Shown piece after piece: positions 25,341-41,906 of a DNA stretch of 64,000 nt. The notes beneath the pieces were generated by a model. The model was not told the DNA's origin. It did no database searches and worked only from the letters and a program-made list of their open reading frames with translations. The DNA is from Candidatus Terrybacteria bacterium RIFCSPHIGHO2_01_FULL_48_17. GTDB taxonomy: Bacteria; Patescibacteriota; Minisyncoccia; Terrybacterales; 2-01-FULL-58-14. Both the position numbers and the translations under genes were made by a program. Positions within the stretch are counted from its first letter, which is position 1. Each line of letters opens with the position of its first letter. The stretch spans positions 7,186 through 71,185 of the forward strand of contig MHSS01000004.1 in NCBI GenBank assembly GCA_001822835.1, read 5' to 3'.

Positions 25341-26169
25341 GTGTATGGAGTTAGCCTCAAGAATATCTGTTCAGCGGCTTTTGAAACAATACGGTATAAA
25401 ACCGCGCAAGGCGCTTGGGCAAAATTTTTTGGTATCGGCCGTTACGCGAAATAAACTGGTGGGGGCTGCATATATAAAGGAAAACGACACGGTGATTGAA
25501 ATCGGAGCAGGGCTTGGCGCGGTTACTCAAGAACTTGCCCGTCGCGCCAAAAAAGTCGTTGCGATTGAGCGCGACGAGAACCTCTGTGTTATCCTGGAGA
25601 ACCTTTTTAAGAACACGCCAAACGTCGAAATCGTCTGCGAAGACGCGCTGAAACAGCTACCAGTAATCAGTAATCAGCTACCAGTTTATAAGGTGATCGG
25701 AAACATTCCTTATAAAATCACAGGCCCGCTAGTGCGAACATTGGTAGATTCAACGCAGCCGCCGCAAAAAATCGTTTTTATGGTGCAAAAAGAGGTGGGG
25801 GAGCGCATATGCGCCAAACCGCCCCATATGAGCTTATTGGCTCTTGCGGCCCAGCATGCTGCGCGCACTTCCTATATATACACAGTTGGGAGGCGTAATT
25901 TTTACCCCCATCCAGCAGTTGATAGCGCTATTATTGCCATTACGCCCAAAAAACACGACCAAAACCAAGACGAAGGCCTTTTTATGGTTGCAAAAACGGC
26001 TTTTCGGTCTCCCCGCAAACAAATTTTGGGCGCACTTTCACGGAATCTCGGTAAAAGCCGGATGGAGGTGGAAAAAATTCTCTCCTTGTGCAAGATTTCG
26101 TCTTCCTCGCGCCCGCAAGAACTCTCTGTTGAACAATGGCATTGCCTTGCTGAAAAGCTTATACGATAA
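25336..26169 (+). CDS. rsmA: 16S rRNA (adenine1518/1519-N6)-dimethyltransferase
   Basis: GQNFL, IEIGAGLGAVT SAM motif, GNIPYKIT; contains the heptamer-encoded segment at 25655-25690 (CAGTAAT repeats). Confidence 0.9.
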   Translation: MLCMELASRISVQRLLKQYGIKPRKALGQNFLVSAVTRNKLVGAAYIKENDTVIEIGAGLGAVTQELARRAKKVVAIERDENLCVILENLFKNTPNVEIVCEDALKQLPVISNQLPVYKVIGNIPYKITGPLVRTLVDSTQPPQKIVFMVQKEVGERICAKPPHMSLLALAAQHAARTSYIYTVGRRNFYPHPAVDSAIIAITPKKHDQNQDEGLFMVAKTAFRSPRKQILGALSRNLGKSRMEVEKILSLCKISSSSRPQELSVEQWHCLAEKLIR

Positions 26170-28560: not shown

Positions 28561-28565
28561 AATAT

Positions 28566-30476
28566 ATGGATACTCGTCACGCTCCACGCAATATCTTGCA
28601 ATATTTATTACTCGCCCTCGGCGGTGTAGTATTGCTTTCGGCAATGCTCGCGCTTGCATCACTTAAAGACGCTTCCAAACAAAACGTACGAGCCCTAACT
28701 CCTGAAGACATCTCCACGACGATAAACGGTATATTCAATACCGGCGACGCAAGCGCTATTACGGCTCTCGCGGGACCGGATGGGCAGATACTCGTTGGAG
28801 GCACGGTCCGTAGTGGTGGGTCGTTCGTTCCCAAGCTCGTATCACTCGAAGATGGTTCTGCCTCGAATCTTTCCTTCGGACTCAAAAACTTTTCAAGTGC
28901 TGCAGTAGAGTCGGTCGCATACGATGGCCAAACATGGCTTGTCGGTGGCGGAGATCCCTTTCTTAATCCAACATCATCGCCAAAACTCAATTCCTACGAC
29001 GGAAGCAGCTTTCAGGATTTGTCATCGTTGCTACAGAACTATAAAGGGTCAGCACAAGCGCTTGGAGGCAATGGATCATATTGGCTGATTGGCATCAACG
29101 GACTTCCCCCGTCCCAAGGCGGAGCGCTTGAAGCGGAAGTAGGGACAACAAGCACAGTGTTATTAAAATACGACGGCACAAATATTTCGGAGATCATCTC
29201 GTCTACAACAAAATCGGATCTCACTGGTGCCTGGATACGCGATATTGCGTGGAACGGGGAATATTGGCTCATCGCACTTGAAAGCGTGCCGCTTAGCGAA
29301 TCTTCTAACTTCCGTGGGCCGTACAAGAGCCGGCTTATGCGATATGATGGCACCACTCTTACGGAATTGACTGTTGGCAAATTTATTAACTACGCCGTCT
29401 TTGCGATCGGCTGGGATGGGGAGCGCTGGATTATTCCCGCCTTTGATAACATTACAAACCAAACGAGCTTCTGGTCTTATGACGGAAAAGCAATAGCACG
29501 GCTTTCCCTTGCCCTTCCTGACAACAAGGTTGTGTCTGCCTTAGCGTGGACGCGCGATAAATGGATTATTGCAACCACCAATGCAAATAATCTTCGCGAT
29601 AAAATCAGTCGAGACCTTACACAAGCAACAGACCTCACAAGGGATGCGGGTGAATTGTGGGAATACGATGGCGCGAACCTCAAAAATATTACCGTGCCTA
29701 CCGCGCTCCTTTTTGTGGAAGATATGGTATTCGACAATACTGCACAAAGTGCATATATTGGCGGCGCAAACTCGCAGGGACGCGTGGCGCTCTTATCTTT
29801 CGCAGTTCCCGCGGCACCGGAATTTCCCGATGGTACGCTCTTGCGTGCAGCAAACCGGCCTGAAGTATTCGTTATTTTTAAAAATAAGAAAAAGCACGTT
29901 CCCGACGCAAACATTTTCGGCTCATACGGCTATCGTTTCGAAAGCGTGCAAACGGTTGATGAGACAACGCTCAACCTTATTCCCGACGTGAAACTTATAT
30001 CAGCACCCGGGGATCCGCGGGTCTTCTTCCTTGACCGAGGTCAAAAACGATGGCTTCGGAATGAAACGGTGTTTGCAAGTTATGGTCTCCCGTGGGACGA
30101 GATATTATCGATAAACGCGACGGATCTTAGCGTATATCGCGACGCTCGCCTGCTCAAATCTCCAGGGGATGAACGCGTTTACTTCATCACAGGAAAAGGG
30201 CTCATCCACCACATTCCAAGCCCCGAGGCCTTTGTGTCTTATGGTAACAAATGGGAGGACATCGTTGGAGTAAGCATAGCAGAATTGCAGTCGTACGAGG
30301 TTGCCAATCTTGTCCGAAAGGCAGGCGATTTCCGCGTATATAAAGTACAGGATGGGGTAAAATATTGGGTACGGACATATGAGGCGTTTCAAAAGTTCGG
30401 ACTGGACCCAAGCAAGGTTTTGGAAATAAACGAAGTCGAATTCAACTCATATACCGAGGGCGCGCCCCTCAATTAG
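28566..30476 (+). CDS. secreted protein with WxxGxxWLI-type propeller-like repeats and four C-terminal tandem ~53-aa repeats
   Basis: Start at the MDTRH Met just after the upstream stop; repeats GDxRV(F/Y)...G.K..IP..EAF.SYG. Confidence 0.55.
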   Translation: MDTRHAPRNILQYLLLALGGVVLLSAMLALASLKDASKQNVRALTPEDISTTINGIFNTGDASAITALAGPDGQILVGGTVRSGGSFVPKLVSLEDGSASNLSFGLKNFSSAAVESVAYDGQTWLVGGGDPFLNPTSSPKLNSYDGSSFQDLSSLLQNYKGSAQALGGNGSYWLIGINGLPPSQGGALEAEVGTTSTVLLKYDGTNISEIISSTTKSDLTGAWIRDIAWNGEYWLIALESVPLSESSNFRGPYKSRLMRYDGTTLTELTVGKFINYAVFAIGWDGERWIIPAFDNITNQTSFWSYDGKAIARLSLALPDNKVVSALAWTRDKWIIATTNANNLRDKISRDLTQATDLTRDAGELWEYDGANLKNITVPTALLFVEDMVFDNTAQSAYIGGANSQGRVALLSFAVPAAPEFPDGTLLRAANRPEVFVIFKNKKKHVPDANIFGSYGYRFESVQTVDETTLNLIPDVKLISAPGDPRVFFLDRGQKRWLRNETVFASYGLPWDEILSINATDLSVYRDARLLKSPGDERVYFITGKGLIHHIPSPEAFVSYGNKWEDIVGVSIAELQSYEVANLVRKAGDFRVYKVQDGVKYWVRTYEAFQKFGLDPSKVLEINEVEFNSYTEGAPLN

Positions 30477-30480
30477 AAAC

Positions 30481-31413
30481 ATGAAACGTACGCTTATTAT
30501 TACAATCGGGGTTATTGTGGTCGGAGGGCTTGCGCTTGTCGGCGCATATTCCCTATTTCGCGGACCGACACTGGGAGTGCTTGTAAACGTATTGCGTTTT
30601 TTGGGAACACCGATTGCGCAAGAAGACACGGGAGCAACGGTTGAAGGGCCATCGTTCACAGAAGACCGTGATAGCGACGGCTTATCCGATGCCAAAGAAG
30701 AAATTTACGGCACAAACTCCGACCTCCCAGACACGGACGGCGATAACTTCACCGATGGCGCTGAAGTACGCAAGGGTTTTGACCCGAAAGTCGCCGGGCA
30801 AGGAAAAATTGCGGACAATCCGGAACTGATGCGAAATCTCACTATTGCCTATTTTGAATGGGCAAGGGAAACGTCAAACATCGAAGATCCGCAGCTTGCC
30901 GAACAGGGTATTCAAACATTTTTGATCAGCCGCAAACAAGACCGGCTCATTTTACCAACGGTTGAAGATAACGAGATTGTACGCACCGACGCCTCCGGAC
31001 CAGATGCCGTTAAAGCATACCTCGACGCCTTTGCTCAAGTAACCCTTCCCCCCGTAACCGCCTCGTACCTGGACCTTGCGGAAGGAAGTTTACAAGAAGA
31101 AACGCAAACCATTATTGATACGGTGGTTTTGGGGATCGATGCAACCTACGAGCAAATTCGCCGTATCCCAACGCCCCAAGAGGCAATTGAAGTGCAACGA
31201 GGGCAGCTTGCAACCATGAAAGCATTAAAGGAGCTTTTTTTGGATCTTAAAAGCGTCAGGCGGGATCCGGTAAAACTGATACGCGACATTTCCTGGGGTA
31301 ACGAACTTGTACTCAAATCAGCGGATATTGAGAAAAAACGCCAGGAACTTGGCTTAATTACAAATCCGGCATTTCAAAATAGTAATCAGGGGACAGGGGA
31401 CAGTAATCAGTAA
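30481..31413 (+). CDS. N-terminal TM + TSP3-like Ca-binding motif protein (DRDSDGLSD...DTDGDNFTDGAE)
   Basis: motif read directly; C-terminus encoded by heptamer repeats (QGTGDSNQ). Confidence 0.55.
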   Translation: MKRTLIITIGVIVVGGLALVGAYSLFRGPTLGVLVNVLRFLGTPIAQEDTGATVEGPSFTEDRDSDGLSDAKEEIYGTNSDLPDTDGDNFTDGAEVRKGFDPKVAGQGKIADNPELMRNLTIAYFEWARETSNIEDPQLAEQGIQTFLISRKQDRLILPTVEDNEIVRTDASGPDAVKAYLDAFAQVTLPPVTASYLDLAEGSLQEETQTIIDTVVLGIDATYEQIRRIPTPQEAIEVQRGQLATMKALKELFLDLKSVRRDPVKLIRDISWGNELVLKSADIEKKRQELGLITNPAFQNSNQGTGDSNQ

Positions 31414-31418
31414 AACAC

Positions 31419-32147
31419 ATGAAGCGGCGTATTCCTTTTTTCATAAAAACGATTCTTTTACTTGCGCTTTTTGGCATCGGCGCTGCGTTTGCCTCCCCAC
31501 AAAAAAACCAAGATGCTCTTGACGCGCAAAATGCTACAATAGATAGCGAAGCGGCTTTATTGCAAGAAGAAGAGGCCTTGGGAGCTGCCGCGACTAAATC
31601 GCAACAAGTGCGCGAACCCTTCCTTGCATCAATTCTCAATGCCGTGGGCGCGAAAGGGCAAAATGATACTCTAATCGGAACAAATGATGTTGCTGAATCA
31701 GAAATCACAAGCACTATTGGTTCCGACGCTACGGCGCTACAGCCCACGATTCAAGCACAGGCCATTGCAGAATATATCGTTGCAACGTCAAACCTTGGGG
31801 GCGATCTTGCGCCAAACCGCATGCAATCGGCCCTATCGCTTGCAAGCCAAGGAGATAAAAATATCCTACTGGACGTTGCCGGAGGATACCGAAAGCTCGC
31901 AGAGGCCTTTAACAAAGTTGCCCCTCCACCCGAACTTCAGCAAAACCACGAGGCGACAAAAGTATTGCTTGGGCGGTTCGCCGGATTTTTAGAAAATCTT
32001 TCATCGCTTCCTGCAACAGAAATTGAAGGTGCGTGGAAAAGCGGAGAGCGCAGCGCGATAACACAAGAAGCGGAGCGTTTAAATCAAGAACTGCGGGCAA
32101 TCGTAACACAATACAATGTTCAACTTCCCGTGGGAACGATCCCCTAG
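31419..32147 (+). CDS. secreted alpha-helical (Ala/Gln/Glu-rich) protein; VirB5/TrbJ-like position, speculative
   Basis: signal peptide, 242 aa, composition. Confidence 0.45.
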   Translation: MKRRIPFFIKTILLLALFGIGAAFASPQKNQDALDAQNATIDSEAALLQEEEALGAAATKSQQVREPFLASILNAVGAKGQNDTLIGTNDVAESEITSTIGSDATALQPTIQAQAIAEYIVATSNLGGDLAPNRMQSALSLASQGDKNILLDVAGGYRKLAEAFNKVAPPPELQQNHEATKVLLGRFAGFLENLSSLPATEIEGAWKSGERSAITQEAERLNQELRAIVTQYNVQLPVGTIP

Positions 32148-32159
32148 GACAAAAATTGC

Positions 32160-32300
32160 CCTAATTTCTAATTGCTCTAATTTGTCTAATCAAATCCCAA
32201 TGTCTAATACAAACAAGGTCAAAACATTTAAACATTAGAAATTCGGTTAAATTCTTTAGGTCAATTAGGTTAATTGGGTCAATTAGAAATTTAACATTCC
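32160..32300. promoter_or_regulatory. AT-rich intergenic region with three copies of AATTTCTAATT / AATTAGAAATT and direct repeat GTCAATTAG
   Basis: 32164-32174 forward, 32235-32246 and 32282-32293 reverse; the only sizeable gap inside the cluster. Confidence 0.5.
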
Positions 32301-32304
32301 TCTC

Positions 32305-34449
32305 ATGTTTTTCTGTAAGCAAATGAATGTTCTTGTTTTGCTTTTGCTCGCAATAATAACGGGTTTCTTTGTGGCGCATCCTGCTCATGCCGCTGTTCCT
32401 GTTGCGGTTGTGCAATTTGACGCCGGGACGGATTTTGAAACCAGCATTCTTTCGTTCCTTGGGGATCTTTTCGACAAACTAACCACAAAACAACTCGAAT
32501 CAAGTGCGGCTTTTGAACTCTTGAAAGTTGAAAAAGCGCGCGAGGACGTAAATAAGCTAATGCAAGAAGTGCAGGAAGAGCTTACGGATTATGGAATCGC
32601 CCTTGCTGTGCAGGACTACCGTGTTTCCAAAGATCCTCGCTGTCTTGAAGAACCCTCGACCTGTCCCACCGCAAATGAGCTTTCTATTTCTCCCTACAAA
32701 CAGTCGCGTATTATTAACAATGTATACGATTATATTTTTGAGGAGCCGCGTGAAAAGGCGCGTGTTTATACAATGTGCTATTTTAATCTTTTCATCTGGG
32801 ATCAGGCCGGGATACTTGATGACATGTTCGGTGATGCCGGCCTTATGGGAGCCCCTCAAGACCCTCCAGACGGTCTTTGTGCGATAGGGGGGAAAGATGT
32901 CACGCCAGGGGGGCCCACGAAATGCACGTATGGAAGCAAAAGCACGCGCCAAAGCATCAACAAACTTCGGGAAACCAGAGACGCAATGCTTTTTGGGCTT
33001 CGTCGAGCAAACTATTACCAACTCGATTACCCGCAAATATTCTTGTTTGGCGACTGGATGGGATATCCGGAAACGAGTAACGCCGCCATCCAACAGTATG
33101 GCCTTGCGGGACGGGGGGAATTCGATAGTGCGGAGATGCGCAAAATGTCGCTTGCTAATTGCATCCCGATTCTTGCAGATACATCCACGCCCCTTCTTCC
33201 AGATCCTGCGCTTCGTTTTCACAACGTTTCTTTAGAGCAGGTAATGGCGGTTCTGCCCTCGCTTATAGAGGGCACCGCAGGACGCCCACAATCAACGCTC
33301 ATTGAGCTCAGGGCGGTACAAGAGGATAAAAATAATATTGACGGCGTCGCCCGTATCGCCATCAGTAATATTTCACGGATTATCAATGAAACCCAAAAGG
33401 AGCGTGAGCTTACATATCTTGCCGGCCAAGGCATCAGGCCGGAGCGTTTATATCTTGAGCTCAACAACAAAGACGAAGCCGGCGAACCCATAGATCCTAT
33501 TCGCGGAGGGCCCGGTGATCTTATTCAATACGAATATGATACCGGCTACATTGTTGCCCCCGCAGTGGTGCTTCTACAAAAAATGCAAGCGGCAAACCAA
33601 GCAATGTTTGATCTAGCGCAAAAATCGTTTTTGTATCTTGATCCGGAAAGGACGTCGCTCTCCACGCTTAATCGGTATAATGTGGTCAGTAACGCAGACA
33701 CTTGTTATGACGATGATGGCAATACGTTCCCGTGTGCTTTTATCGGAGGGTTTTTCGAACGGCAAATTTGCAACGTAGTTCCTAATAATCCTTCCGGCAC
33801 TTATTGTTTCCCCGTCGATCCGTGGCTCAAACCACGCACTGCGTTCAGGTCGGCGCCCGACGCAAAACGGGTTGGCCCTAATTTTAAGACAAGCCAGGAT
33901 TCTCCATTGCCGATACTCTCAAGCGAAGGCGGGCTTCCTGCGCCTTGGGAGGATGAAAGCGCGTACGTGGCACTCGGAAACGAAAAAGTGGGGGCTGCGG
34001 CCGAAAGAGGAAGCCAACAATTCGATCTGAAATATAAGATAAGTGATTATAAATTCGATACACCTAAAGTTGCATATCCTGGTATTTTAGAAAGTGCTGG
34101 GTGGAACAAGGGCGACAACATCGGTTTAAAGGCGCTCGGGGCGGATTATGCCATCAACGACTGGTATGATCGTGTGTTTGAAATGTATGAACCATATCGT
34201 AACGAAAATACGCTTACATTTGGGCCAGGGGAGTGGACATGTTACATCGCAACGTGGTTCAGATTCCGACAAGTGGAGGGGAATCTTGTTCCAACTTTTG
34301 CCAGCACGCGCACCGTTATAGATATCGGCGAACGAACATTTAGTATTTTGCCGACCGCAAAAATTATACAAGGCCCGACAGTTGCGGACGCGCTCCAAAA
34401 TCAAATCGACGACTATTGCGGCGAGCGCCTATCCGATACTAGCTACTAA
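32305..34449 (+). CDS. large secreted protein (714 aa), hypothetical
   Basis: signal peptide ...AHPAHA-AVP; no motif. Confidence 0.5.
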   Translation: MFFCKQMNVLVLLLLAIITGFFVAHPAHAAVPVAVVQFDAGTDFETSILSFLGDLFDKLTTKQLESSAAFELLKVEKAREDVNKLMQEVQEELTDYGIALAVQDYRVSKDPRCLEEPSTCPTANELSISPYKQSRIINNVYDYIFEEPREKARVYTMCYFNLFIWDQAGILDDMFGDAGLMGAPQDPPDGLCAIGGKDVTPGGPTKCTYGSKSTRQSINKLRETRDAMLFGLRRANYYQLDYPQIFLFGDWMGYPETSNAAIQQYGLAGRGEFDSAEMRKMSLANCIPILADTSTPLLPDPALRFHNVSLEQVMAVLPSLIEGTAGRPQSTLIELRAVQEDKNNIDGVARIAISNISRIINETQKERELTYLAGQGIRPERLYLELNNKDEAGEPIDPIRGGPGDLIQYEYDTGYIVAPAVVLLQKMQAANQAMFDLAQKSFLYLDPERTSLSTLNRYNVVSNADTCYDDDGNTFPCAFIGGFFERQICNVVPNNPSGTYCFPVDPWLKPRTAFRSAPDAKRVGPNFKTSQDSPLPILSSEGGLPAPWEDESAYVALGNEKVGAAAERGSQQFDLKYKISDYKFDTPKVAYPGILESAGWNKGDNIGLKALGADYAINDWYDRVFEMYEPYRNENTLTFGPGEWTCYIATWFRFRQVEGNLVPTFASTRTVIDIGERTFSILPTAKIIQGPTVADALQNQIDDYCGERLSDTSY

Positions 34450-34458
34450 CGGAGGTTT

Positions 34459-36465
34459 ATGAAGTCCTCGCACAAAACAATCCTGGTTTTCGCGCTAACA
34501 TTGCTGATTCTTTCCATATTCCTTCCGCATCATGCAGACGCGTTTCTTGGCGTAGATTTGCCGGATCCCCGCGAAGTGGCGCTTAAAATGTTCGATGCGA
34601 TACTTACGATTATTCGAAACGCCGCCGCATCCTTACTGCATATTGCAGCACAATTTCTCAAATATGCCTTGGTTGATTTAACGGGCTCAATGCCCTTTTA
34701 CAATAACTTTTTTGTGCAGGCCGGCTGGCAAGCAGTAAGGGACTTCGCGAATCTTGGATTCGTCCTTTTCTTGCTTGTAGCCGCAGTAGCCACCATTTTG
34801 GATCTTCAAAATTATGGCTGGAAACGTATTATACCCCGTCTCATTATCGTGGCTCTTTTGGTAAACTTTAGTTTGCCGCTCGTCGCTTTTGCCATTAATA
34901 TTGCAAACCTCATGATGGGCTTTTTCACAGTGAACGTCGCGTCAGAAGCCGGATATTCGGATATCGGGGCGGCACTCATTGCTGGCTTTCGTGTGGGTGA
35001 TATTACCGCGGACCCGTCGCTGGAAAGCTTAAAAATAGCAAACGGGGGAGGAGATATAAGTACGACCATGACATCAATCATCAATAATATCACCGCCATT
35101 ATTTTCTTTCTCATCGCGGCAGTTATTCTGTTTTGGCTTGCGATGTACCTTATCGTGCGCATTATTGCGCTCTGGGTATTGATAATCCTTTCACCCTTGG
35201 CAATTGTGGCGAGCATCTTTCCGGCAACGCAAAGCATGTTTAGCCGGTGGCTGCACCAGCTCACGCATTGGACGTTTTTTGGAATTGCTGCTGCTTTTTT
35301 CTTATGGCTTGCCACGTTGCTCATCTTTACGGTCAATACGCAAAATTGGGCGGATATCCAGCTCGTTGGAGGGGCAAACTATCTTTCGCTGACATCAAAA
35401 GCCGGCCTCCTCTTTTCCTACGCAACCACCGCGGTTTTCTTGGTCTTGGCGTTACAAACGGCAAAAGGGGCTTCGCAGGGATTTGCACAAATGGTGGTAA
35501 ATACTGCCGGAGGATTGGCAATGGGTGCGGTCGGATTTGCTGCAGGTGCGGCAGGACGGCCGGCATTGCGTCGAGCCAGACGAGCCGTTGCTGAAAGCAA
35601 GACGGTCCGCGGGTTTGCAGAAGGAACGGGGAAGGCCTTGGAACGCATTCGAAACGTACCTATTTTGGGCGGGGCAACACGAGGGGCGCGAGAAGGACTT
35701 ATGGGTCTCGCTGGAGCCGGTCCAATGAAGGACGAAACGGAAAAGGAATACAAACGACTCAAAGCATCAAATCTCTCGCCCATACAAATTGCACGGCTTG
35801 CTTCTAACACCGACAGCCAGGGGCTAAAAGTTGCGACTGGGAGGGCGCTTAGCGAGACGAACGCATATGATAAGGCAACTACCGACGATGAGAGACATAT
35901 GGTACGGCGCCTGCAAAACCAAGCTTATGTTATTGCTGAATCTACCGGCAATACTAAAGAGATTGAAAATCTTGCCTATAACGATAAAGGGTATGCGGAA
36001 CGCGCACGCGAACGAGGGATTGGATATTTCAAAGACCTCAGCGATGAAGAAATCAATAAAAGATTTGTGGGAGAGCATACGTCTTCCGAAATCCTGCAAC
36101 AGCCGGAAACCGCCTTCAACATGTCTGCTGCGAATGTCCGAGGAGTAGCACAGCGTGGTTCGCCCAAACAACGGAAGGCCTTGGCCGAAGCAATTTTGGG
36201 AACGGAACAAAAGCCCGTCACAGAACCGCCCCAAGGTGTCAGCGAAGAGCAATTCCGCTTTATGCAACAACTCGTGCAATTAAATGCCGCCCTTGCAGAA
36301 ACCATTGGGCGCACCAAGGCATTCGGCCGCGCGCAAGCGGAAGTTGCAGCGGCACAAGAAGCAATCGGAGGCGATGTCACCGACATACGTCAGCAATTAC
36401 AAACACCGCCGCAAGAACCGAAGCAGGAACCGGAAGGGACAGACAAAGAAAATAAAAATGTGTAA
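34459..36465 (+). CDS. polytopic membrane protein (6-7 TM) with a hydrophilic C-terminal domain; VirB6/TrbL-like
   Basis: TM topology and size; follows the secreted proteins and precedes VirB3/VirB4-like genes. Confidence 0.45.
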   Translation: MKSSHKTILVFALTLLILSIFLPHHADAFLGVDLPDPREVALKMFDAILTIIRNAAASLLHIAAQFLKYALVDLTGSMPFYNNFFVQAGWQAVRDFANLGFVLFLLVAAVATILDLQNYGWKRIIPRLIIVALLVNFSLPLVAFAINIANLMMGFFTVNVASEAGYSDIGAALIAGFRVGDITADPSLESLKIANGGGDISTTMTSIINNITAIIFFLIAAVILFWLAMYLIVRIIALWVLIILSPLAIVASIFPATQSMFSRWLHQLTHWTFFGIAAAFFLWLATLLIFTVNTQNWADIQLVGGANYLSLTSKAGLLFSYATTAVFLVLALQTAKGASQGFAQMVVNTAGGLAMGAVGFAAGAAGRPALRRARRAVAESKTVRGFAEGTGKALERIRNVPILGGATRGAREGLMGLAGAGPMKDETEKEYKRLKASNLSPIQIARLASNTDSQGLKVATGRALSETNAYDKATTDDERHMVRRLQNQAYVIAESTGNTKEIENLAYNDKGYAERARERGIGYFKDLSDEEINKRFVGEHTSSEILQQPETAFNMSAANVRGVAQRGSPKQRKALAEAILGTEQKPVTEPPQGVSEEQFRFMQQLVQLNAALAETIGRTKAFGRAQAEVAAAQEAIGGDVTDIRQQLQTPPQEPKQEPEGTDKENKNV

Positions 36466-36480
36466 AACGAAACAGAAGTT

Positions 36481-37341
36481 ATGCCGGTTTTAACGCCTCA
36501 ACTATCTCCGCAACTTTTGGAAACCGCAGGGGACGAACGCACAGAAAAAGCCATCGCTTGGATCGCACAACGTTGGAAACTAAAAAGTGCTGACGATTTT
36601 GTGGCACAAGGCGCAAATTTTCAAGAAGCCCTCAGGCAATCACAAGTTTTTGTCCTTTCGCAAACAGTAGGAGAAGTGCTTGCGGGCAAGCTTCACCCCA
36701 ATTTTGTGGTAAAAACCCTTGAAGAACGCCTGAATATTCCACGCGACCGTGCACGCGACATTGCACATGACGTTTCGCGCGAAATTTTCTCGCGCGTACG
36801 AAGGGAGCTCATGGATTATTACCGGATAACGCCCGAACAGAAAGTTGCGCACCCCTCTCGGGACGCGGACCTACGCGGACAGGACGCAGACAAACACGGA
36901 CAACAGGAAGAGCCGATGAAGCCGTCAATGGCGGAGAGCATACAGGGTACAGGGTACAGGGCACAGGAATCAGAAGACGGGGGACAGGGAATAGAAATTG
37001 GGGAACCGGGATTGGCAATCAGTAATCAGAAATCAGAAATCGGGGATCGGGGGATGGAAGTTAAGGAAGAAGCACCGGCGCCGCCGCAAGAATCAGAATT
37101 AAAAGAGATCCCGCAACAACCACCTTTTGATGCGACGTTAGGCAAACCAAGTTTGGTAGAACAAGTGGAAGAAAAGTCGTTTCCCGAAAACATACAGCAA
37201 ACAGGGGACAGGGGACAGGAAACCGGGGCACAGGGGACGGGGGACGGGGGACAGGGGACAGTAAACGGAAAACCCGTTGCCGGACACGATAAACCGGAGC
37301 ACTTTGAGCCAGGACCGGGCCAGGTTATCGATCTAAGATGA
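36481..37341 (+). CDS. hypothetical protein whose C-terminal half is encoded by heptamer tandem repeats (QGTG-rich)
   Basis: repeats at 36941-37055 and 37199-37263. Confidence 0.5.
   Translation: MPVLTPQLSPQLLETAGDERTEKAIAWIAQRWKLKSADDFVAQGANFQEALRQSQVFVLSQTVGEVLAGKLHPNFVVKTLEERLNIPRDRARDIAHDVSREIFSRVRRELMDYYRITPEQKVAHPSRDADLRGQDADKHGQQEEPMKPSMAESIQGTGYRAQESEDGGQGIEIGEPGLAISNQKSEIGDRGMEVKEEAPAPPQESELKEIPQQPPFDATLGKPSLVEQVEEKSFPENIQQTGDRGQETGAQGTGDGGQGTVNGKPVAGHDKPEHFEPGPGQVIDLR
36941..37055. repeat. about 17 consecutive degenerate heptamers (ACAGGGT/ACAGGGC/TCAGAAA/TCGGGGA ...)
   Basis: strict 7-nt periodicity read directly. Confidence 0.9.
37199..37263. repeat. (GGGGACA)-type heptamer array, about 9 units
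   Basis: aacaggggacaggggacaggaaaccggggcacaggggacgggggacgggggacaggggaca. Confidence 0.9.
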
Positions 37342-37354
37342 GTTGAAAATTAAA

Positions 37355-37405
37355 GGTTAAGAGTTAAGAGTTAAATTCTTAATTCTCGATTTTAGATTTT
37401 TAATT
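37355..37405. repeat. AT-rich heptamer-periodic array (GTTAAGA GTTAAGA GTTAAAT TCTTAAT ...) in an intergenic spacer
   Basis: read directly. Confidence 0.8.
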
Positions 37406-37407
37406 TA

Positions 37408-37860
37408 TTGAGTGTGCAAGTCAAAGTTCCCAAATTCATTGATATTGAAGATAAAGTTATTTTTGGCTTAACCTGGCGCCAATTTTTATTCTTGGGCGTA
37501 GGTGGCGGAGTCGGCATTGTTGCGTTCTATGTTTTAGTACAACCCTTAGGAACAGCAATCGGTGTTGTTTCTATGACCATTGGTGCAATCTTTGCGTTAG
37601 TCAAAATAAACAACCGCCCCATGCATATATTTGTATATTCATTGTGGAACTATTTTTTTAACCCACGCCAATACACATGGAAAAAAGAAGCGACCGCGGC
37701 AAGGACAGCGAAAGTGACCAAAATCACAAAAAAGGAGACGCCGGCAACTCCCAAAACCATAACTCCGGAACGACTAAAACGCCTTTCGGTATTGCTAGAT
37801 ATCCAAGGACAAAAACAATCTGATGCCAATGTCAAAGTCCAAAGCTCAAATGCCAAATAA
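37408..37860 (+). CDS. PrgI/VirB3-like small membrane protein
   Basis: N-terminal VPKFIDIEDKVIFGLTWRQFLFLGVGGGV followed by two TM helices, about 150 aa, located before the VirB4 genes. Confidence 0.55.
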   Translation: MSVQVKVPKFIDIEDKVIFGLTWRQFLFLGVGGGVGIVAFYVLVQPLGTAIGVVSMTIGAIFALVKINNRPMHIFVYSLWNYFFNPRQYTWKKEATAARTAKVTKITKKETPATPKTITPERLKRLSVLLDIQGQKQSDANVKVQSSNAK

Positions 37861-37960
37861 AACCCAAAATCCCAAGCTCAAATACCAAAACCCGTGCGTT
37901 TTTATGCTTTGGATTTTCGTCATTGATTTGTCATTTGGATTTTGAAATTTGGATTTAGTA
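37836..37960. repeat. about 125-bp imperfect palindromic element with 7-nt periodicity (CCAAA-rich arm / cgtgcg centre / TTTGG-rich arm); copy 1
   Basis: shares AAATCCCAA and CATTTGGATTT signatures with the copy at 45836-45960. Confidence 0.6.
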
Positions 37961-37964
37961 GCCG

Positions 37965-38633
37965 TTGCTTATGCCTCAAGTATCCACCCAATCGTTTCTT
38001 CAGTTTGAGTTCGTCCGTGAAGGCGCGATTGTCCTTCGGGGCGGAGGACTGCGTGCAATTTTAATGGTGTCGGGATCAAATTTCGGCCTGAAATCCCAGG
38101 AAGAGCAAGAGGCAACGGTATATGCATTTCAGAATTTCCTCAATTCTCTTGATTTTGACATCCAAATAACCATACATTCGCGTAAAATTGATATCGAACC
38201 CTATCTTGCAACGCTTGGAGAACGTCTTGAACGGGCAGAGACCGATCTTTTGCGCGTGCAGACGCGCGAATATATCGAGTTTATCCGTTCTTTTGTTGAA
38301 GGCGCAAACATTATGGCAAAGCAGTTTTTTGTCATAGTGCCATACGACCCGGTAACCGGCACCAAAGAAAGGGGAGTTGTAGCAAAAGCAAGGGCACTGC
38401 TTCCTGTTTCAAAAAAAGAAACGGTTTTAGAGGAAGAAAATTTTGAAACAAATCGCAAACAGCTTATGGAGCGCGTTGAGTTTACGGTTCAGGGCCTGCA
38501 TAAAACCGGTCTTCGCTCAACCGCGCTCTCAACGGAAGAGATTATAGAACTTCTGTGGAAGCTTTATAATCCGGAAAAGGAAGCAAAGGGACAAATGCCA
38601 AATTTTGAAGAACTTGGTGCGGCTTCGGACTAA
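37965..38633 (+). CDS. VirB4/TrbE N-terminal domain (CagE_TrbE_VirB-like) as a separate ORF
   Basis: LRGGGLRAILMVSGSNFGLKSQEEQEATVYAFQNFLNSLDFDIQITIHSRKIDIEPYL matches the VirB4 N-domain pattern; in-frame stop, then 78-nt gap. Confidence 0.6.
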   Translation: MLMPQVSTQSFLQFEFVREGAIVLRGGGLRAILMVSGSNFGLKSQEEQEATVYAFQNFLNSLDFDIQITIHSRKIDIEPYLATLGERLERAETDLLRVQTREYIEFIRSFVEGANIMAKQFFVIVPYDPVTGTKERGVVAKARALLPVSKKETVLEEENFETNRKQLMERVEFTVQGLHKTGLRSTALSTEEIIELLWKLYNPEKEAKGQMPNFEELGAASD

Positions 38634-38643
38634 CCTGCACAAT

Positions 38644-38686
38644 AAGTTTCTATGAGTTTCGCCGAGCAAATATCTATAAATTTCTG
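38644..38686. promoter_or_regulatory. copy of the AAGTTTCTATGAGTTTCGC..GAGCAAAT element in the gap between the two VirB4 ORFs
   Basis: about 27/32 identity to 25261-25292. Confidence 0.5.
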
Positions 38687-38711
38687 AAACTAATGGATTG
38701 AAATTGATTGT

Positions 38712-40493
38712 ATGAACCCCCCTAAAGCTCAACTTTCTCCCGAAGAACTCTTTGAACGAGGCGTTGCAACCTTGAAGGATTTGCTTGCGCCATCAGCCCT
38801 GGAGTTTTCCCAAAACACCATAAAAATAGGCGAGCGCTATACGCGCATTCTTTTTGCGTTTTCCTACCCCCGCTACCTTACAACCAACTGGCTTTCACCT
38901 ATTATTAACCTTGATCAAACCATTGACGTAACCATGTTTGTTCAGCCGGTAGAGACCGCGGAGATGCTAAAAAAAATGGAAAAGAAGGTCGCCGAGGTTG
39001 AATCGCAAATGATGGAACGAGAAGAAAAAGGGCGGGTGCGCGACCCGATGCTGGAGACCGCCTATAAGGATCTTGAGGATTTGCGCGATAAATTACAGCA
39101 GGCCCGTGATAGAATGTTTCAGTTTTCGCTTTATATCACTATCTGGGGAAGATCCGAAGAAGAGCTTGCTTCCATTGAAAATACAATTCGCTCCCAACTT
39201 GAAGGACGGCTTGTATATATGAAGCCGGCAATTTTTCAACAAGAAGAGGCCCTTAAATCCGTGCTGCCGTACGCGGATAATTGGCTTAAGATATCAACAA
39301 ATTTGGACGCGGAAACCATTGCAACGGCCTTCCCGTTTATTTCGCTGGATCTCACCATGAACCACGGGGTGCTTTACGGCATTAACCGGCACAATAATTC
39401 CCTCGTTATTTTTGACCGCTTCTCGTTACCCAACGCAAATTCCGTAATGTTTGGAATTTCCGGAGGGGGAAAATCCTATGCAGCAAAACTTGAGGTGCTG
39501 CGCGCGCTTATGTTTGGCACCGATGTTATAGTGGTTGACCCGGAGAACGAATATGAGCATTTGGCCCGTGCAGCTGGCGGAACTTTCGCCCATATCTCTC
39601 TTACCGCAAAACAGCATATCAACCCTTTCGATTTGCCGCCCATAACGGAAGACGAAAGCCCTAAAGAAATTTTTAGATCCCATCTCCTCGAAGTCGTGGG
39701 GCTACTGAAAGTAATGCTGGGCAAAAATATCACCCCGGATGAGGAAGCGATTGTTGACCGTGCGGTTACGGAAACCTATGCCTCACGCAATATCACATCG
39801 GAAAGCGATTTCTCGATCATCACAGCCCCGCTTTTTTCCGATTTCCTCTCGGTGTTAGGAGATCTTGAGGGAGGAAGAGTTCTTGCGCAACGGCTTGAAA
39901 AATTTACAAAGGGTGCGTATGCGGGTTTCTTGGATCAACCGACGAACGTGGATATTAACCGCCGCTTTATTGTATTTAGCATCCGGGATCTTGAAGAAGA
40001 GTTGCGACCGATTGCGATGTACATTATTTTACATTTTATCTGGAATCGTATACGCGCATCTTTAAAAAAACGGCTTTTGGTTATTGATGAAGCGTGGTGG
40101 CTTATGCAAAAAGAGGATGGCGCCGCGTTCTTGTTTTCCATCGCCAAGCGGGCTCGAAAATATTTCCTTGGCATCGCAACCATCACCCAAGACGTAGCGG
40201 ATTTTATGGGATCCCCCTACGGCCAGCCCATTGTCGCAAACTCATCGCTTCAATTGCTCTTTAAACAGTCGCCCGCAACTATTGATGCCGTGCAGAAAAC
40301 GTTTAACCTTACGGACGAAGAGAGGTATCTGTTGCTGGAAAGCGCGGTAGGAGACGCATTGTTTTTTGCCGGTCTTAAACATGTGGCTATACAGGTTGTG
40401 GCTTCGTACACAGAAGATCAGATTATTACATCGGATCCTTCCCAGCTTTTGGCAATAAAGCGCGCACGAGAAAACCTTACACAAAAACAGTGA
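38712..40493 (+). CDS. VirB4-family conjugative/T4SS ATPase, C-terminal NTPase part
   Basis: Walker A GISGGGKS, Walker B LLVIDEAWWL, ITQDVADF motif; 593 aa. Confidence 0.85.
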   Translation: MNPPKAQLSPEELFERGVATLKDLLAPSALEFSQNTIKIGERYTRILFAFSYPRYLTTNWLSPIINLDQTIDVTMFVQPVETAEMLKKMEKKVAEVESQMMEREEKGRVRDPMLETAYKDLEDLRDKLQQARDRMFQFSLYITIWGRSEEELASIENTIRSQLEGRLVYMKPAIFQQEEALKSVLPYADNWLKISTNLDAETIATAFPFISLDLTMNHGVLYGINRHNNSLVIFDRFSLPNANSVMFGISGGGKSYAAKLEVLRALMFGTDVIVVDPENEYEHLARAAGGTFAHISLTAKQHINPFDLPPITEDESPKEIFRSHLLEVVGLLKVMLGKNITPDEEAIVDRAVTETYASRNITSESDFSIITAPLFSDFLSVLGDLEGGRVLAQRLEKFTKGAYAGFLDQPTNVDINRRFIVFSIRDLEEELRPIAMYIILHFIWNRIRASLKKRLLVIDEAWWLMQKEDGAAFLFSIAKRARKYFLGIATITQDVADFMGSPYGQPIVANSSLQLLFKQSPATIDAVQKTFNLTDEERYLLLESAVGDALFFAGLKHVAIQVVASYTEDQIITSDPSQLLAIKRARENLTQKQ

Positions 40494-40497
40494 CACT

Positions 40498-40824
40498 ATG
40501 AACGAAGAGGAGTATACTGGAAACGAAGAGGAGGAAGAGCTTACACAACGCCAAGCGCTCGCTCAAGAGCGCGGCGACGCACAAACAGCAGGGCACTATT
40601 TAAAACAACAAGCGCAACAACAGGCAGTGCGCGCTGGAATGCAAATGGCAAAACAAGTGGTAAGACGTGTTGTGGTACAAGCGGCAATTCGAGGCATCAT
40701 CATACTGCTTACCAATCCTGTCGCGCTAGTTATAGAAGGCGTTATTTTGCTTATCATTATCGTGGTTCTTATCGTAATATACGGCGGATTCTATATCCAA
40801 GAAGGGGCCTCCCAAATTTTATGA
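40498..40824 (+). CDS. small membrane protein with acidic N-terminus and a 35-aa hydrophobic hairpin
   Basis: starts 5 nt after the VirB4 stop; overlaps the next gene by 4 nt. Confidence 0.45.
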   Translation: MNEEEYTGNEEEEELTQRQALAQERGDAQTAGHYLKQQAQQQAVRAGMQMAKQVVRRVVVQAAIRGIIILLTNPVALVIEGVILLIIIVVLIVIYGGFYIQEGASQIL

Positions 40825-41906
40825 AGAGGAAAATCTCCTATAGTTATCACAGGCTACTGCTTTGGTGTATAGGCGCTTTTATGGCAATGGCGATTCTTCC
40901 CTTTGTCGCCAACGCTATGTTGCCTGCAGACGGCGGTCTTGGTGGCGTGGGAGCCCCGGGTCAAAGTCAAAACATCAGCAGCCCTCGTCCGAAACTCGAA
41001 GAGGGTCTTGAGCTTCCTCTCCCCGGCGCCCCTGATTTTTCAACCGGCGATCCTGCTGACATTATCGGCTGGTTCTTTTTCTTTACGATGGGCATAGTCG
41101 GGATCCTGGCGCTTATTATGTTGGTTGTCGGGGGAGTGCAATTCACCGCTTCTGCCATTGATCCCGAAGCACGAACCCAAGCACGTAATCGGATACGAGC
41201 AGCCCTTACCGGCCTTTTGCTTGCACTCGTTTCATTTGTGCTTCTCTATACGCTCAATCCAGATCTTGTCAATTTGCGTAGCCCCTCGCTTCCGTGTGTT
41301 TCGTGTGCTTGCCTTGATAGCACGCGAGCGGCTCCCGGACTGAATGTAAATAATTGCGTACAATCAGATCAAGCGGCCTATAGTACGGGCATCCGTGAAA
41401 CAGGAGCGTTTAATACCGACCCCTGTTTGACCTCTGCGATCGCAAGTATTGATCCTAATAGATTAAAGCTCTTGGACGACGCCGGACGCACAGCCGAATA
41501 CGCGAGGGCGTCGGCTGCAAAGGGATGCGGATTTGTTTTTATTGCGGACGATGACAAAACCAATACCACGTGTGCGGCCTATTGCATGCAGAAAAAGGCA
41601 GATAGTTGTGACTATCGCAACGAGCCGGGGTGTAGTTGTAAATCAATCTATGAGCAAACAAAAAACTGGGCATGCAAAACCATGGGTCTCAATACCGTAT
41701 GCAATGAAGAAAAAGACAGCCCCGATGATTCCCAACTTTTCGGATGCCCGCTCCTTGGTTCGTATGTCGAATACGCGACAAATCTCGGCGGAGATTACGA
41801 TGCCTGTAAGTGCGCATCTACAGTAACATGTGCGGATGACGAGGTTATCTCGCTCGTGAAGGATACATTTAAGGAATTGCCGGGCTGGGCGGGTGGCTGC
41901 AACTAA
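40821..41906 (+). CDS. VirB2/TrbC-like pilin module (signal peptide + 2 TM) fused to a C-terminal domain of about 210 aa with 20 Cys
   Basis: cleavable signal ...VANA, hydrophobic pair IIGWFFFFTMGIVGILALIMLVVGG / LTGLLLALVSFVLLY separated by a charged loop. Confidence 0.4.
   Translation: MKRKISYSYHRLLLWCIGAFMAMAILPFVANAMLPADGGLGGVGAPGQSQNISSPRPKLEEGLELPLPGAPDFSTGDPADIIGWFFFFTMGIVGILALIMLVVGGVQFTASAIDPEARTQARNRIRAALTGLLLALVSFVLLYTLNPDLVNLRSPSLPCVSCACLDSTRAAPGLNVNNCVQSDQAAYSTGIRETGAFNTDPCLTSAIASIDPNRLKLLDDAGRTAEYARASAAKGCGFVFIADDDKTNTTCAAYCMQKKADSCDYRNEPGCSCKSIYEQTKNWACKTMGLNTVCNEEKDSPDDSQLFGCPLLGSYVEYATNLGGDYDACKCASTVTCADDEVISLVKDTFKELPGWAGGCN

What the first reader, a model, noticed from the sequence alone, without database searches (positions are those of the whole stretch)
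37965..40493. VirB4 encoded as two ORFs, with a copy of a recurring regulatory element in the 78-nt gap
The N-terminal (CagE_TrbE_VirB-like) and C-terminal (Walker A/B) parts of VirB4 are separate ORFs divided by an in-frame stop and a 78-nt spacer. The spacer holds an element (38644-38686) about 85% identical to one upstream of ksgA and the cluster start (25261-25292). Three explanations are possible. It may be a genuine split gene with an internal promoter. An element insertion may have disrupted VirB4. A sequencing or assembly artefact may have created a pseudogene. Each implies something different about whether the apparatus is functional.
Basis: partly seen in the sequence, partly recalled or inferred. 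Interest (0 to 1): 0.65.

Follow-up and report, generated by a model that had tools for sequence, protein, structure and literature searches.

The report
Conserved two-gene VirB4 with inserted repeat
The secretion-system ATPase VirB4 is normally made from two neighbouring genes in this group of tiny bacteria, which was already known, and the gap between them here holds a copy of a small repeated DNA element that is found in several bacterial phyla and appears to be under selection at this site.

Summary
ORF1 (37971-38633, 220 aa) and ORF2 (38712-40493, 593 aa) are separated by 78 nt with four in-frame stops. Together they are colinear with a full-length monoderm VirB4.

It is not an artefact, a pseudogene or an insertional disruption:
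- Four independent assemblies carry the identical gap.
- All 120 listed best homologues of each ORF have the split lengths.
- Close relatives have the same two genes 1-10 nt apart, in other frames and without the element.
- Both genes are under strong purifying selection.

The layout is the known TrsD + VirB4 arrangement of Patescibacteria type IV secretion systems (PMC12102498). The organism is a Candidatus Terrybacteria.

The spacer element (38639-38711) and its copy upstream of ksgA (25246-25342) belong to a roughly 70-100-nt, AT-rich, inverted-repeat family. It has AATTTC/GAAATT boxes at about 10-nt phase around the core GCGAAGCA. Copies lie between unrelated housekeeping genes in CPR, Omnitrophota and other MAGs. 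I found no Rfam match and no literature match.

The element entered an already split gene pair. It is identical in a relative whose synonymous sites are only about 45% identical, so it is probably functional. The mechanism (promoter or protein-binding array) is inferred, not shown.

The parts
37408..37860 (+). prgI (VirB3-like) gene, immediately upstream of the pair. Its 3' end and the following spacer (37813-37970) differ between strains.
   Evidence: Pfam PF12666 PrgI, E 4.4e-12. The order prgI-trsD-virB4 is conserved in relatives and in pSK41 as trsC-trsD-trsE. The strain-level allele replacement is shown.
37971..38633 (+). ORF1: a stand-alone VirB4 N-terminal-domain protein of 220 aa (TrsD-like, Pfam TraC-like). 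The mechanical ORF starts at TTG 37965.
   Evidence: 1136 homologues were found, and the best 120 are all 194-240 aa. NCBIfam places residues 17-122 on positions 13-118 of the 752-position CD1110 VirB4 model, residues 28-122 on VirB4_plasma (E 3.5e-11), and residues 14-159 on TIGR00929 positions 17-151. hhalign matches the N-terminal 20-196 of a fused 783-aa VirB4 at 91.7% probability. The AF2 model's top 14 PDB matches are all TrwK/VirB4.
38634..38711 (.). 78-nt spacer between ORF1 and ORF2, with four in-frame stops.
   Evidence: It is identical in four independent assemblies.
38639..38711 (+). Copy 2 of the dispersed repeat (73 nt, 29% G+C). Layout: ACAATAAGTTTC-TATGAGTTTC (38639-38660), core GCCGAGCA (38661-38668), AATATC-TATAAATTTC (38669-38684), short loop, right end ATTGAAATTGATTGT (38697-38711) abutting the ATG.
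   Evidence: It is 100% identical to the copy in L001 apart from a 16-nt indel, while 4-fold degenerate sites are 41-45% identical. It is absent from the same spacer in L062, L004, L054 and L055.
38712..40493 (+). ORF2: VirB4 ATPase lacking the first ~175 positions of the full-length model (593 aa). Walker A is at residue 248 and Walker B at residue 455.
   Evidence: NF045971 conju_CD1110: residues 9-559 on profile 176-733/752, 388.7 bits against a cut-off of 325. 4AG5 VirB4 C-terminal domain, E 3e-40. Pfam. tblastn covers 91-97% of the protein against Firmicutes VirB4. Motifs.
38712..38744 (+). First 11 codons of virB4. They are conserved at the DNA level together with the element, with 1 mismatch to L001.
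   Evidence: Alignment. The protein N-terminus is not conserved in more distant relatives, so the constraint is on the nucleotides.
25246..25342 (+). Copy 1 of the dispersed repeat (97 nt, 31% G+C). It fills the spacer between the G5/DPBB gene, whose TGA stop at 25250-25252 lies inside the element, and ksgA (ATG 25345). The core GCGAAGCA is at 25278-25285. This is the head of the co-directional gene string that contains the T4SS cluster.
   Evidence: It folds as a long hairpin, z = -3.5.
26191..41906 (+). Surrounding co-directional T4SS cluster: SLT+M23 cell-wall hydrolase (26191-28560), TrbL/VirB6-like (34459-36465), prgI, trsD-like, virB4, a small membrane protein (40498-40824) and a T4SS pilin (40821-41906). 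It lies ~6 kb from dnaA (47838).
   Evidence: Pfam. dnaA and dnaN are annotated on the identical contig L057. Proximity of the T4SS to the origin in Paceibacteria is described in PMC12102498.

Best explanation
This is the normal, functional layout of the type IV secretion ATPase in Patescibacteria, here in a Candidatus Terrybacteria genome. The first ~200 residues of a full-length monoderm VirB4 are made as a separate protein, ORF1. The literature on these systems calls it TrsD; Pfam calls it TraC-like. The rest, a second N-terminal subdomain plus the Walker A/B ATPase domain, is made as ORF2.

Shown:
- The two products are colinear with a fused VirB4.
- The split is conserved in the close relatives examined and in all 120 listed best homologues of each ORF (of 1136 and at least 8000 hits), and also occurs in Firmicutes plasmids.
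- Both genes are under purifying selection.
- The shared reading frame is a coincidence.

Inferred: the two proteins assemble non-covalently. ORF1 plays the part of the VirB4 N-terminus next to PrgI/VirB3, whose gene lies directly upstream.

The ancestral state of the gap is 1-10 nt, which would allow coupled translation. In the common ancestor of this lineage and its closest sampled relative, a copy of a small AT-rich inverted-repeat element inserted into that gap without touching either gene. The element is of MITE or REP type and is found in several phyla.

Shown: that copy, with its copy-specific base changes, and the first 11 codons of virB4 have stayed identical while synonymous sites have nearly saturated. 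The long hairpin of the element is not preserved in the window.

Inferred: the copy has acquired a cis-acting role at the DNA level. The most likely role is a protein-binding or curved-DNA module that drives or modulates independent expression of virB4 and the downstream pilin genes. A second copy sits at the head of the ksgA-T4SS gene string.
For: Colinearity:
- ORF1 maps to positions 13-118 and ORF2 to positions 176-733 of the 752-position CD1110 VirB4 model.
- The ORF1 profile aligns to residues 20-196 of a fused 783-aa C. perfringens VirB4. ORF2 residue 15 aligns from about residue 207 of that protein.
- The ORF1 model matches only TrwK/VirB4 among its top 14 PDB hits.

Conservation of the split:
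- Homologue lengths fit the split.
- Synteny is conserved in relatives.
- A Pontibacillus plasmid has a 274-aa protein plus a 621-aa VirB4, hhalign 99.7%.
- pSK41 has trsD-trsE 14 nt apart.
- The arrangement is published: 2272 TrsD homologues, 1664 next to virB4, and essential in S. epibionticum ML1.

Not an artefact: four assemblies have the identical spacer.

Selection on the genes: amino-acid identity is 80% and 93%, against 41% and 45% identity at 4-fold sites.

Frame is incidental: start offsets in L001, L004, L054, L055 and pSK41 are not multiples of 3.

The element came later: it is absent from the 8-nt gap of L062 (VirB4 83% identical) and from the 10-, 4- and 1-nt gaps of L004, L054 and L055. 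It is present in L001, whose VirB4 is 93% identical.

Constraint on the element: 73/73 aligned element positions are identical, and it is the most conserved 40-nt stretch of the 3.1-kb alignment.

DNA level rather than hairpin:
- The window copy folds no better than shuffles, z = -0.68, whereas L001 gives z = -4.8.
- There is no copy-specific complementarity between arms across 26 copies, p = 0.39.

Element family.
Against: - No transcription, protein-interaction or DNA-binding data exist for this organism.
- No sigma-70-type promoter is found in the spacer.
- ORF1 scores far below the cut-off of the NCBIfam TrsD/TraD model (17.7 against 200 bits), and its match to pSK41 TrsD is weak at 6.8% probability. 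'TrsD' is therefore a label taken from the literature, not a tested membership.
- The structural match to TrwK is modest: TM 0.38-0.49, E 3e-3 or weaker.
- The window strain and the L001 lineage occur in the same metagenome (3300025323). A short recombination tract could in principle explain the identical block.
- No target-site duplication or partner transposase was found for the element, so its mobility is inferred from its distribution only.
Confidence: 0.8

Rival explanations
1. The element is a selfish, functionless miniature transposable element. Its identity between the window and the L001 lineage reflects recent exchange of a short DNA tract between co-occurring relatives, not selection.
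For: - The family is dispersed, AT-rich in a 49% G+C genome, bounded by inverted repeats, and present or absent among close relatives. It is found in several phyla between unrelated housekeeping genes.
- Copies in Omnitrophota carry a second nested insert in either orientation.
- The two lineages come from the same metagenome.
Against: - The identical block (38639-38744) coincides with the element plus 11 codons and is flanked on both sides by diverged sequence. A conversion tract of about 105 nt placed exactly there is unlikely.
- Both copies share variants that differ from the family consensus (GAGTTTCGCCGAGCAAATATC), so they were not refreshed from other copies.
- A 16-nt indel separates them, so they are not a very recent transfer.
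Confidence: 0.2
2. The element works at the RNA level inside a trsD-virB4 transcript. It could be a processing site for a double-strand-specific RNase, a stabilising hairpin, or an A/U-rich translation-initiation enhancer for virB4, which has no Shine-Dalgarno sequence.
For: - Most family members, the ksgA copy and the L001 copy fold into long hairpins (z = -3.5, -4.8, -2.0).
- About three quarters of copies are in the sense orientation relative to the flanking genes, and many abut a start codon.
- Conservation extends into the first 11 codons of virB4.
- This genome rarely uses Shine-Dalgarno sequences.
Against: - The window copy has lost most of its right arm and does not fold better than shuffled sequence, yet the remainder is perfectly conserved.
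- There is no compensatory pairing across 26 copies.
- The boxes repeat every ~10 nt, one turn of the DNA helix, which has no obvious meaning in RNA.
- There is no Rfam match.
- About a quarter of copies are antisense to both neighbours.
Confidence: 0.2
3. VirB4 is a pseudogene. A once continuous gene was broken, either by the element or by nonsense mutations, and the apparatus is defective.
For: The two ORFs share a frame and are colinear with a fused VirB4 of Firmicutes.
Against: - The same two genes exist without the element, and in other frames, in relatives.
- All 120 best homologues of each ORF have the split lengths.
- Amino-acid identity of 80% and 93%, against about 43% at 4-fold sites, shows selection on both ORFs.
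- The catalytic motifs are intact.
- TrsD is reported as essential in a cultivated relative.
Confidence: 0.02
4. Sequencing or assembly error created the gap, or a single protein is made by programmed read-through or frameshifting.
For: None beyond the shared frame.
Against: - The 131-nt region is identical in four assemblies from four samples.
- There are four in-frame stops.
- Relatives have the genes in different frames with 1-94-nt gaps.
Confidence: 0.01

Closest known systems
TrsD + VirB4 pair of Patescibacteria type IV secretion systems (Quinonero-Coronel et al. 2025, PMC12102498)
   Same: - A small protein with remote homology to the VirB4 N-terminus is encoded directly upstream of a ~600-aa VirB4 and downstream of PrgI/VirB3.
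- The cluster includes VirB6-like and VirB2-like pilin genes, has no relaxase in view, and lies close to dnaA.
   Different: That paper, as far as I searched it, does not discuss the intergenic spacer or any repeat element in it. This locus has a 78-nt gap occupied by a dispersed repeat, where relatives have 1-10 nt.
trsC-trsD-trsE of staphylococcal plasmids pSK41/pGO1 (MPF-FATA prototype)
   Same: The gene order is VirB3-like, then a ~220-aa protein, then VirB4, with a short gap of 14 nt.
   Different: ORF1 is only marginally similar to staphylococcal TrsD: NF041427 gives 17.7 bits against a cut-off of 200, and hhalign gives 6.8% probability. TrsE is longer, at 672 aa. ORF1 is much closer to the stand-alone protein of a Pontibacillus plasmid (99.7%).
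Full-length CD1110-family VirB4 of Firmicutes (for example the 783-aa C. perfringens plasmid protein) and TrwK/VirB4 of R388
   Same: ORF1 plus ORF2 together cover the whole CD1110 model in order. The ORF1 fold matches TrwK. The ORF2 ATPase domain matches 4AG5 and TrwK residues 445-735.
   Different: Those are single polypeptides. Here the break lies at about model position 175, inside what is classically called the N-terminal domain.
Small dispersed inverted-repeat elements that sit in intergenic DNA and affect neighbouring genes (Correia elements of Neisseria, ERIC, REP/BIME). This comparison comes from my own knowledge and was not tested here.
   Same: About 70-140 nt long, with terminal inverted repeats, multiple copies, strictly intergenic, present or absent among relatives, and often next to gene starts.
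   Different: - This family has an invariant asymmetric core (GCGAAGCA) between arrays of AATTTC/GAAATT boxes at about 10-nt phase.
- It occurs in two layouts, left-right and right-left.
- It shows no detectable target duplication.
- Near-identical copies are found in different phyla (CPR, Omnitrophota and others) rather than in one genus.

Membership tests
VirB4 ATPase, CD1110 type (NCBIfam NF045971), monoderm MPF-FATA systems | Whole-protein score above the curated cut-off | tested here: met
   ORF2 alone scores 388.7 bits against a cut-off of 325, covering profile 176-733/752.
VirB4 ATPase, CD1110 type (NCBIfam NF045971), monoderm MPF-FATA systems | Walker A and Walker B motifs of the P-loop domain | tested here: met
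   GISGGGKS at residue 248 and LLVIDE at residue 455. P-loop_TraG and AAA_10 match. 4AG5 gives E 3e-40.
VirB4 ATPase, CD1110 type (NCBIfam NF045971), monoderm MPF-FATA systems | A single polypeptide that includes model positions 1-175 | tested here: not met
   Positions 13-118 are on ORF1, a separate gene.
VirB4 ATPase, CD1110 type (NCBIfam NF045971), monoderm MPF-FATA systems | Context with other mating-pair-formation genes | tested here: met
   PrgI, a TrbL/VirB6-like protein, a T4SS pilin and an SLT/M23 hydrolase lie on the same strand.
TrsD/TraD family (NCBIfam NF041427; pGO1/pSK41 prototype) | Score above the curated cut-off of 200 bits | tested here: not met
   ORF1 scores 17.7 bits, E 0.0025. 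pSK41 TrsD itself scores 227.6 bits. hhalign of the ORF1 profile against pSK41 TrsD gives 6.8% probability.
TrsD/TraD family (NCBIfam NF041427; pGO1/pSK41 prototype) | A protein of about 200-270 aa encoded between the VirB3-like gene and virB4 | tested here: met
TrsD/TraD family (NCBIfam NF041427; pGO1/pSK41 prototype) | Remote homology to the N-terminal part of VirB4 | tested here: met
TrsD as defined in PMC12102498 (CONJScan MPF-FATA TrsD profile) | A hit to that HMM profile | not testable with these tools
   The profile is not in the libraries offered. The paper reports 2272 such homologues in Patescibacteria, 1664 of them next to virB4.
Pfam PF26593 TraC-like | A Pfam hit | tested here: inconclusive
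   The hit is precomputed for the 100% identical P0001 and for all 120 listed homologues. The local Pfam copy returned no family for ORF1.
Miniature inverted-repeat transposable element (MITE) | Short, non-coding, with terminal inverted repeats | tested here: met
   Copies are 70-138 nt. The ends are ACAATnAATTTC ... GAAATTnATTGT.
Miniature inverted-repeat transposable element (MITE) | Many dispersed copies, and presence or absence at orthologous sites | tested here: met
   - There are 2 copies in the window, and at least 7 exact-core stretches in one Omnitrophota MAG.
- About 32 genome stretches and 5 unrelated metagenome contigs carry real copies.
- The trsD-virB4 site is filled in the window and L001 and empty in L062.

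Miniature inverted-repeat transposable element (MITE) | Target-site duplication | tested here: inconclusive
   Inspection of the flanks showed none. No closely matched empty and filled pair was available.
Miniature inverted-repeat transposable element (MITE) | An autonomous partner with the same ends that encodes a transposase | tested here: not met
   No left and right ends enclosing a transposase were found in about 290 kb of held loci. Whole genomes could not be scanned.
Sigma-70-type promoter | -35 and -10 hexamers with 16-18-nt spacing in the spacer, on the + strand | tested here: not met
   The consensus scan of 37300-38900 finds none on the + strand. None is found at 24900-25700 either. 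Promoters of this phylum may differ.
Any described RNA family (Rfam 15) | A covariance-model match | tested here: not met
   The window yields only 3 tRNAs at gathering thresholds. Nothing at the element positions appears in four loci with canonical copies at E <= 1.

The most novel reading that the evidence does not exclude
The spacer element may belong to a previously undescribed, cross-phylum family of roughly 70-100-nt intergenic modules. The family is seen in CPR/Patescibacteria, Omnitrophota and MAGs labelled Bdellovibrionales and Pseudomonadales. Phased AATTTC/GAAATT boxes flank an invariant GCGAAGCA core.

Under this reading the module is the binding array of a specific, horizontally shared DNA-binding protein and acts as a portable promoter or operator. 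In this lineage it would have been recruited to uncouple virB4 and the pilin genes from trsD, and to link them with the head of the ksgA-T4SS gene string.
Probability: 0.3. Interest if true: 0.6.

Novelty: new member of a known kind. Interest (0 to 1): 0.35.

Why it matters
The type IV secretion system is the one apparatus shown to be essential for the epibiotic life of a cultivated member of this phylum (cited in PMC12102498). It therefore matters whether this locus is intact, and it is. The 'split' should not be scored as a pseudogene in genome surveys.

Two modest points go beyond what I found in the literature I searched:
- The two halves map cleanly onto one full-length VirB4 model with a break at about position 175. 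That gives a natural experiment on what the VirB4 N-terminus does.
- The gap has been colonised by a small repeat that is then held invariant. The same repeat family occurs in very distant ultra-small bacteria. If it is a portable regulatory module, it would be a handle on gene regulation in organisms whose promoters are essentially uncharted.

Tried and rejected
- **Local Pfam scan of ORF1:** no hit.
- **PDB sequence search with ORF1:** only chance matches to picornavirus VP3.
- **Sigma-70 promoter and terminator scans of both element sites:** nothing on the + strand.
- **Rfam:** gathering thresholds on the whole window and permissive thresholds on four loci with canonical copies gave no family at the element.
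- **Hairpin hypothesis:** a permutation test of within-copy against between-copy arm complementarity gave no signal (17.65 against 17.59 of 22, p = 0.39). The window copy folds like shuffled sequence.
- **Regulon hypothesis:** the genes downstream of copies are unrelated housekeeping genes, including rpsB, rpsG, rplE, recR, prfA, murG, guaA, smc, htrA, moaA and acpS.
- **Phage origin:** the 19-mer core has no match in viral contigs.
- **Autonomous partner element:** none found.
- **Additional copies in the window:** none beyond the two.
- **Literature:** neither strand of the core sequence occurs in any paper. Searches for MITE + CPR and for Omnitrophota/Patescibacteria + inverted repeat found nothing relevant.
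- **Homology of the window elements to the repeats in the corresponding spacers of the 71% relatives (L063, L064):** the alignment is not convincing, so they are treated as a different repeat family.
- **Read-through or frameshift fusion:** rejected because there are four stops and the frames differ in relatives.
Full report
**What is there**

ORF1 runs from 37965 (TTG) or, more likely, 37971 (ATG) to 38633. ORF2 runs from 38712 to 40493 in the same frame. The 78 nt between them contain four in-frame stop codons, so this is a true intergenic spacer and not a point nonsense mutation.

ORF2 has the P-loop_TraG/AAA_10 domains, Walker A (GISGGGKS) and Walker B (LLVIDE). Residues 219-573 align to the solved C-terminal domain of a VirB4 (4AG5, E 3e-40) and to TrwK residues 445-735.

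The neighbours on the same strand are a PrgI/VirB3-like gene, a TrbL/VirB6-like gene, a T4SS pilin and an SLT+M23 wall hydrolase. KsgA of the window is 100% identical to a protein of a Candidatus Terrybacteria MAG.

**ORF1 and ORF2 are the two halves of one VirB4**

NCBIfam places ORF1 residues 17-122 on positions 13-118 of the 752-position CD1110-type VirB4 model. It places ORF2 residues 9-559 on positions 176-733, at 388.7 bits against a cut-off of 325. ORF1 also matches the N-terminal parts of two other VirB4 models, with E 3.5e-11 for VirB4_plasma and positions 17-151 for TIGR00929.

A Clostridium perfringens plasmid encodes a fused 783-aa VirB4 directly after prgI. The ORF1 family profile aligns to its residues 20-196 (hhalign 91.7%, E 7.6e-7). 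ORF2 residue 15 aligns from about its residue 207.

An AlphaFold model of ORF1 (mean pLDDT 76) finds TrwK/VirB4 of R388 as its 14 best PDB matches. The scores are modest, with probability 0.97-1.0 for the top 12, E 3e-3 or weaker, and TM 0.38-0.49.

The local Pfam copy gives nothing for ORF1, while precomputed annotation calls it PF26593 TraC-like.

**The split is conserved, old and already described**

- ORF1 has 1136 homologues, and the best 120 are all 194-240 aa.
- The best 120 homologues of ORF2 are all 583-621 aa.
- Relatives keep prgI - small gene - virB4, with gaps of 1, 4, 8 and 10 nt and in different frames. The shared frame in the window is therefore incidental. Even the closest relative (L001) has the two genes out of frame.
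- A Pontibacillus plasmid has a 274-aa stand-alone homologue (hhalign 99.7%) overlapping a 621-aa VirB4.
- pSK41 has trsC-trsD-trsE with a 14-nt gap.
- Quinonero-Coronel et al. [quoted passage not shown] They found 2272 homologues, 1664 of them next to virB4, and it is essential in S. epibionticum ML1. They also note the closeness of the cluster to dnaA. Here dnaA is ~6 kb away.

By the NCBIfam TrsD/TraD model, ORF1 is not a member: it scores 17.7 bits against 200, and the profile match to pSK41 TrsD has 6.8% probability. I therefore call it TrsD-like in position and role, and a VirB4 N-terminal-domain protein by homology.

**Not an artefact and not a pseudogene**

Four assemblies from four samples contain the identical 131-nt region around the spacer.

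Between the window and L001, TrsD is 80% identical and VirB4 is 93% identical in protein. Four-fold degenerate sites are only 41% and 45% identical, which means strong purifying selection on both genes.

**The element**

The 28-mer shared by 25261 and 38644 is absent from 100 shuffles. The full copies are 25246-25342 and 38639-38711, about 30% G+C in a 49% G+C window. A profile finds no third copy.

Scans of public collections show a family:
- 6 metagenome contigs, one of which is the L001 contig.
- 39 genome stretches for the 19-mer ATTTCGCGAAGCAAATTTC. About 32 of them have the full architecture, and about 7 are bare chance matches.

The record titles name several CPR groups (Saccharibacteria, Levyibacteriota, Portnoybacteria, Falkowbacteria). 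They also name at least seven Omnitrophota MAGs, one with at least 7 exact-core stretches, four of them on an 810-kb contig. Other MAGs are labelled Bdellovibrionales and Pseudomonadales. I did not verify these labels.

The consensus is aaacAAtaAaTTTC-tAtnAATTTC-GCGAAGCA-AATTTC-tAtnAATTTC, then a loop, then (taGAAAtTna) repeated 3-4 times, ending TTGT.

Two layouts occur, left-right and right-left. Copies are intergenic, between unrelated housekeeping genes, and about three quarters are in the sense orientation. I found no Rfam family, no literature match and no viral match.

**History and constraint at this site**

The element is present in L001 (VirB4 93% identical) with 16 extra nt, which add further GAAATT boxes. 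It is absent from L062 (83%; 8-nt gap) and from more distant relatives. So it inserted into an already existing short gap.

All 73 aligned element positions are identical between the window and L001, including the variants that distinguish this copy from the family consensus. Identity continues through the first 11 codons of virB4 with one mismatch. It is the best-conserved stretch of the 3.1-kb alignment, whose mean identity is 76%. Under neutrality, at about 45-50% identity per site, this has a probability below 1e-20. A very short recombination tract between the two co-occurring lineages is the only alternative I cannot exclude.

**How it probably works**

The long hairpin seen in other copies is lost in the window copy: z = -0.68, against -4.8 for L001 and -3.5 for the ksgA copy. 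The arms show no copy-specific compensation (p = 0.39). The boxes recur every ~10 nt, one helical turn.

I therefore favour a DNA-level role, as a protein-binding or curved-DNA module. It would give virB4 and the downstream pilin genes their own expression signal after the insertion broke the tight coupling with trsD. A second copy lies at the head of the ksgA-T4SS gene string.

This is inference. No sigma-70 consensus is present. However, this genome seems to use few Shine-Dalgarno sites and has many TAnAAT-like hexamers 5-10 nt before start codons, so its promoters may not fit the scan.

An RNA-level role (processing site or A/U-rich initiation enhancer) and a neutral passenger are kept as rivals.

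**Verdict**

The gene part is ordinary and already known, and the apparatus looks intact. The spacer element is a real, constrained copy of an apparently undescribed, widely distributed small repeat family. That is the only part that goes beyond the literature I searched.

Noticed in passing
window 37813-37970 versus L057:2796-2872 (also L058-L060): Assemblies of the same strain are 99.95% identical elsewhere but carry a completely different sequence in place of the 3' end of prgI plus the prgI-trsD spacer. The window allele has three TTTGGATTT repeats. The other allele has a GGGATAGG.../CCCTATTCCCTAT palindromic module and gives PrgI a different C-terminus. This looks like strain-level swapping of an intergenic module.
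   Followed up: partly
window 42007-42036(-), 56214-56227(-), 58754-58780(-); 45942(+), 45837/45851/46691(-); 61770-61807(-); upstream of 4254(-): Short tandem-repeat modules recur in different spacers of this genome, often as about three direct repeats just upstream of a start codon. Examples are CCCTATT, TTTGGATTT, GCGTAAGTC and GTACCCT. The GCGTAAGTC module also sits upstream of prgI in the relative L001 (826-863).
   Followed up: partly
L063:1385-1476, 1885-1997, 2655-2757: In a relative with 71% identical VirB4, a different ~100-nt repeat precedes each of prgI, trsD and virB4. It has CTCGAAT boxes and ends with three ATTCGCG repeats at 11-12-nt spacing. The ksgA-upstream spacer of a contig from the same sample series (L064:2933-3000) has the same motifs. 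The spacers colonised here are therefore colonised by another repeat family there.
   Followed up: partly
window, upstream of many start codons (e.g. 9916, 1615(-), 47838, 61746(-), 6223): Few genes have a Shine-Dalgarno sequence. Many have a TAnAAT-like hexamer ending 5-10 nt before the ATG, which suggests frequent leaderless or very short-leader mRNAs.
   Followed up: no
L028:5700-5850, L031:5070-5210, L034:2070-2215 (Omnitrophota MAG JBAZGN01): Three copies of the AATTTC/GAAATT element carry a second, G+C-rich palindromic insert of about 55 nt in their loop (GATTGTCCGCCACCGATGAC...GGCGGATCCGCC...). In one of the three it is in the opposite orientation. This is a repeat nested within a repeat.
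   Followed up: no
L056:3667-3748 (Candidatus Kaiserbacteria MAG): The trsD-virB4 gap is 82 nt there. It holds yet another palindromic repeat (TAGCCACTAG / CTAGTGGCTA motifs) that is unrelated to the window element.
   Followed up: no
window 25250-25252: The TGA stop codon of the G5/DPBB (resuscitation-promoting-factor-like) gene lies inside the left end of element copy 1. The right end of that copy stops 2 nt before the ksgA ATG. The element therefore fills the whole spacer and supplies the stop codon.
   Followed up: yes
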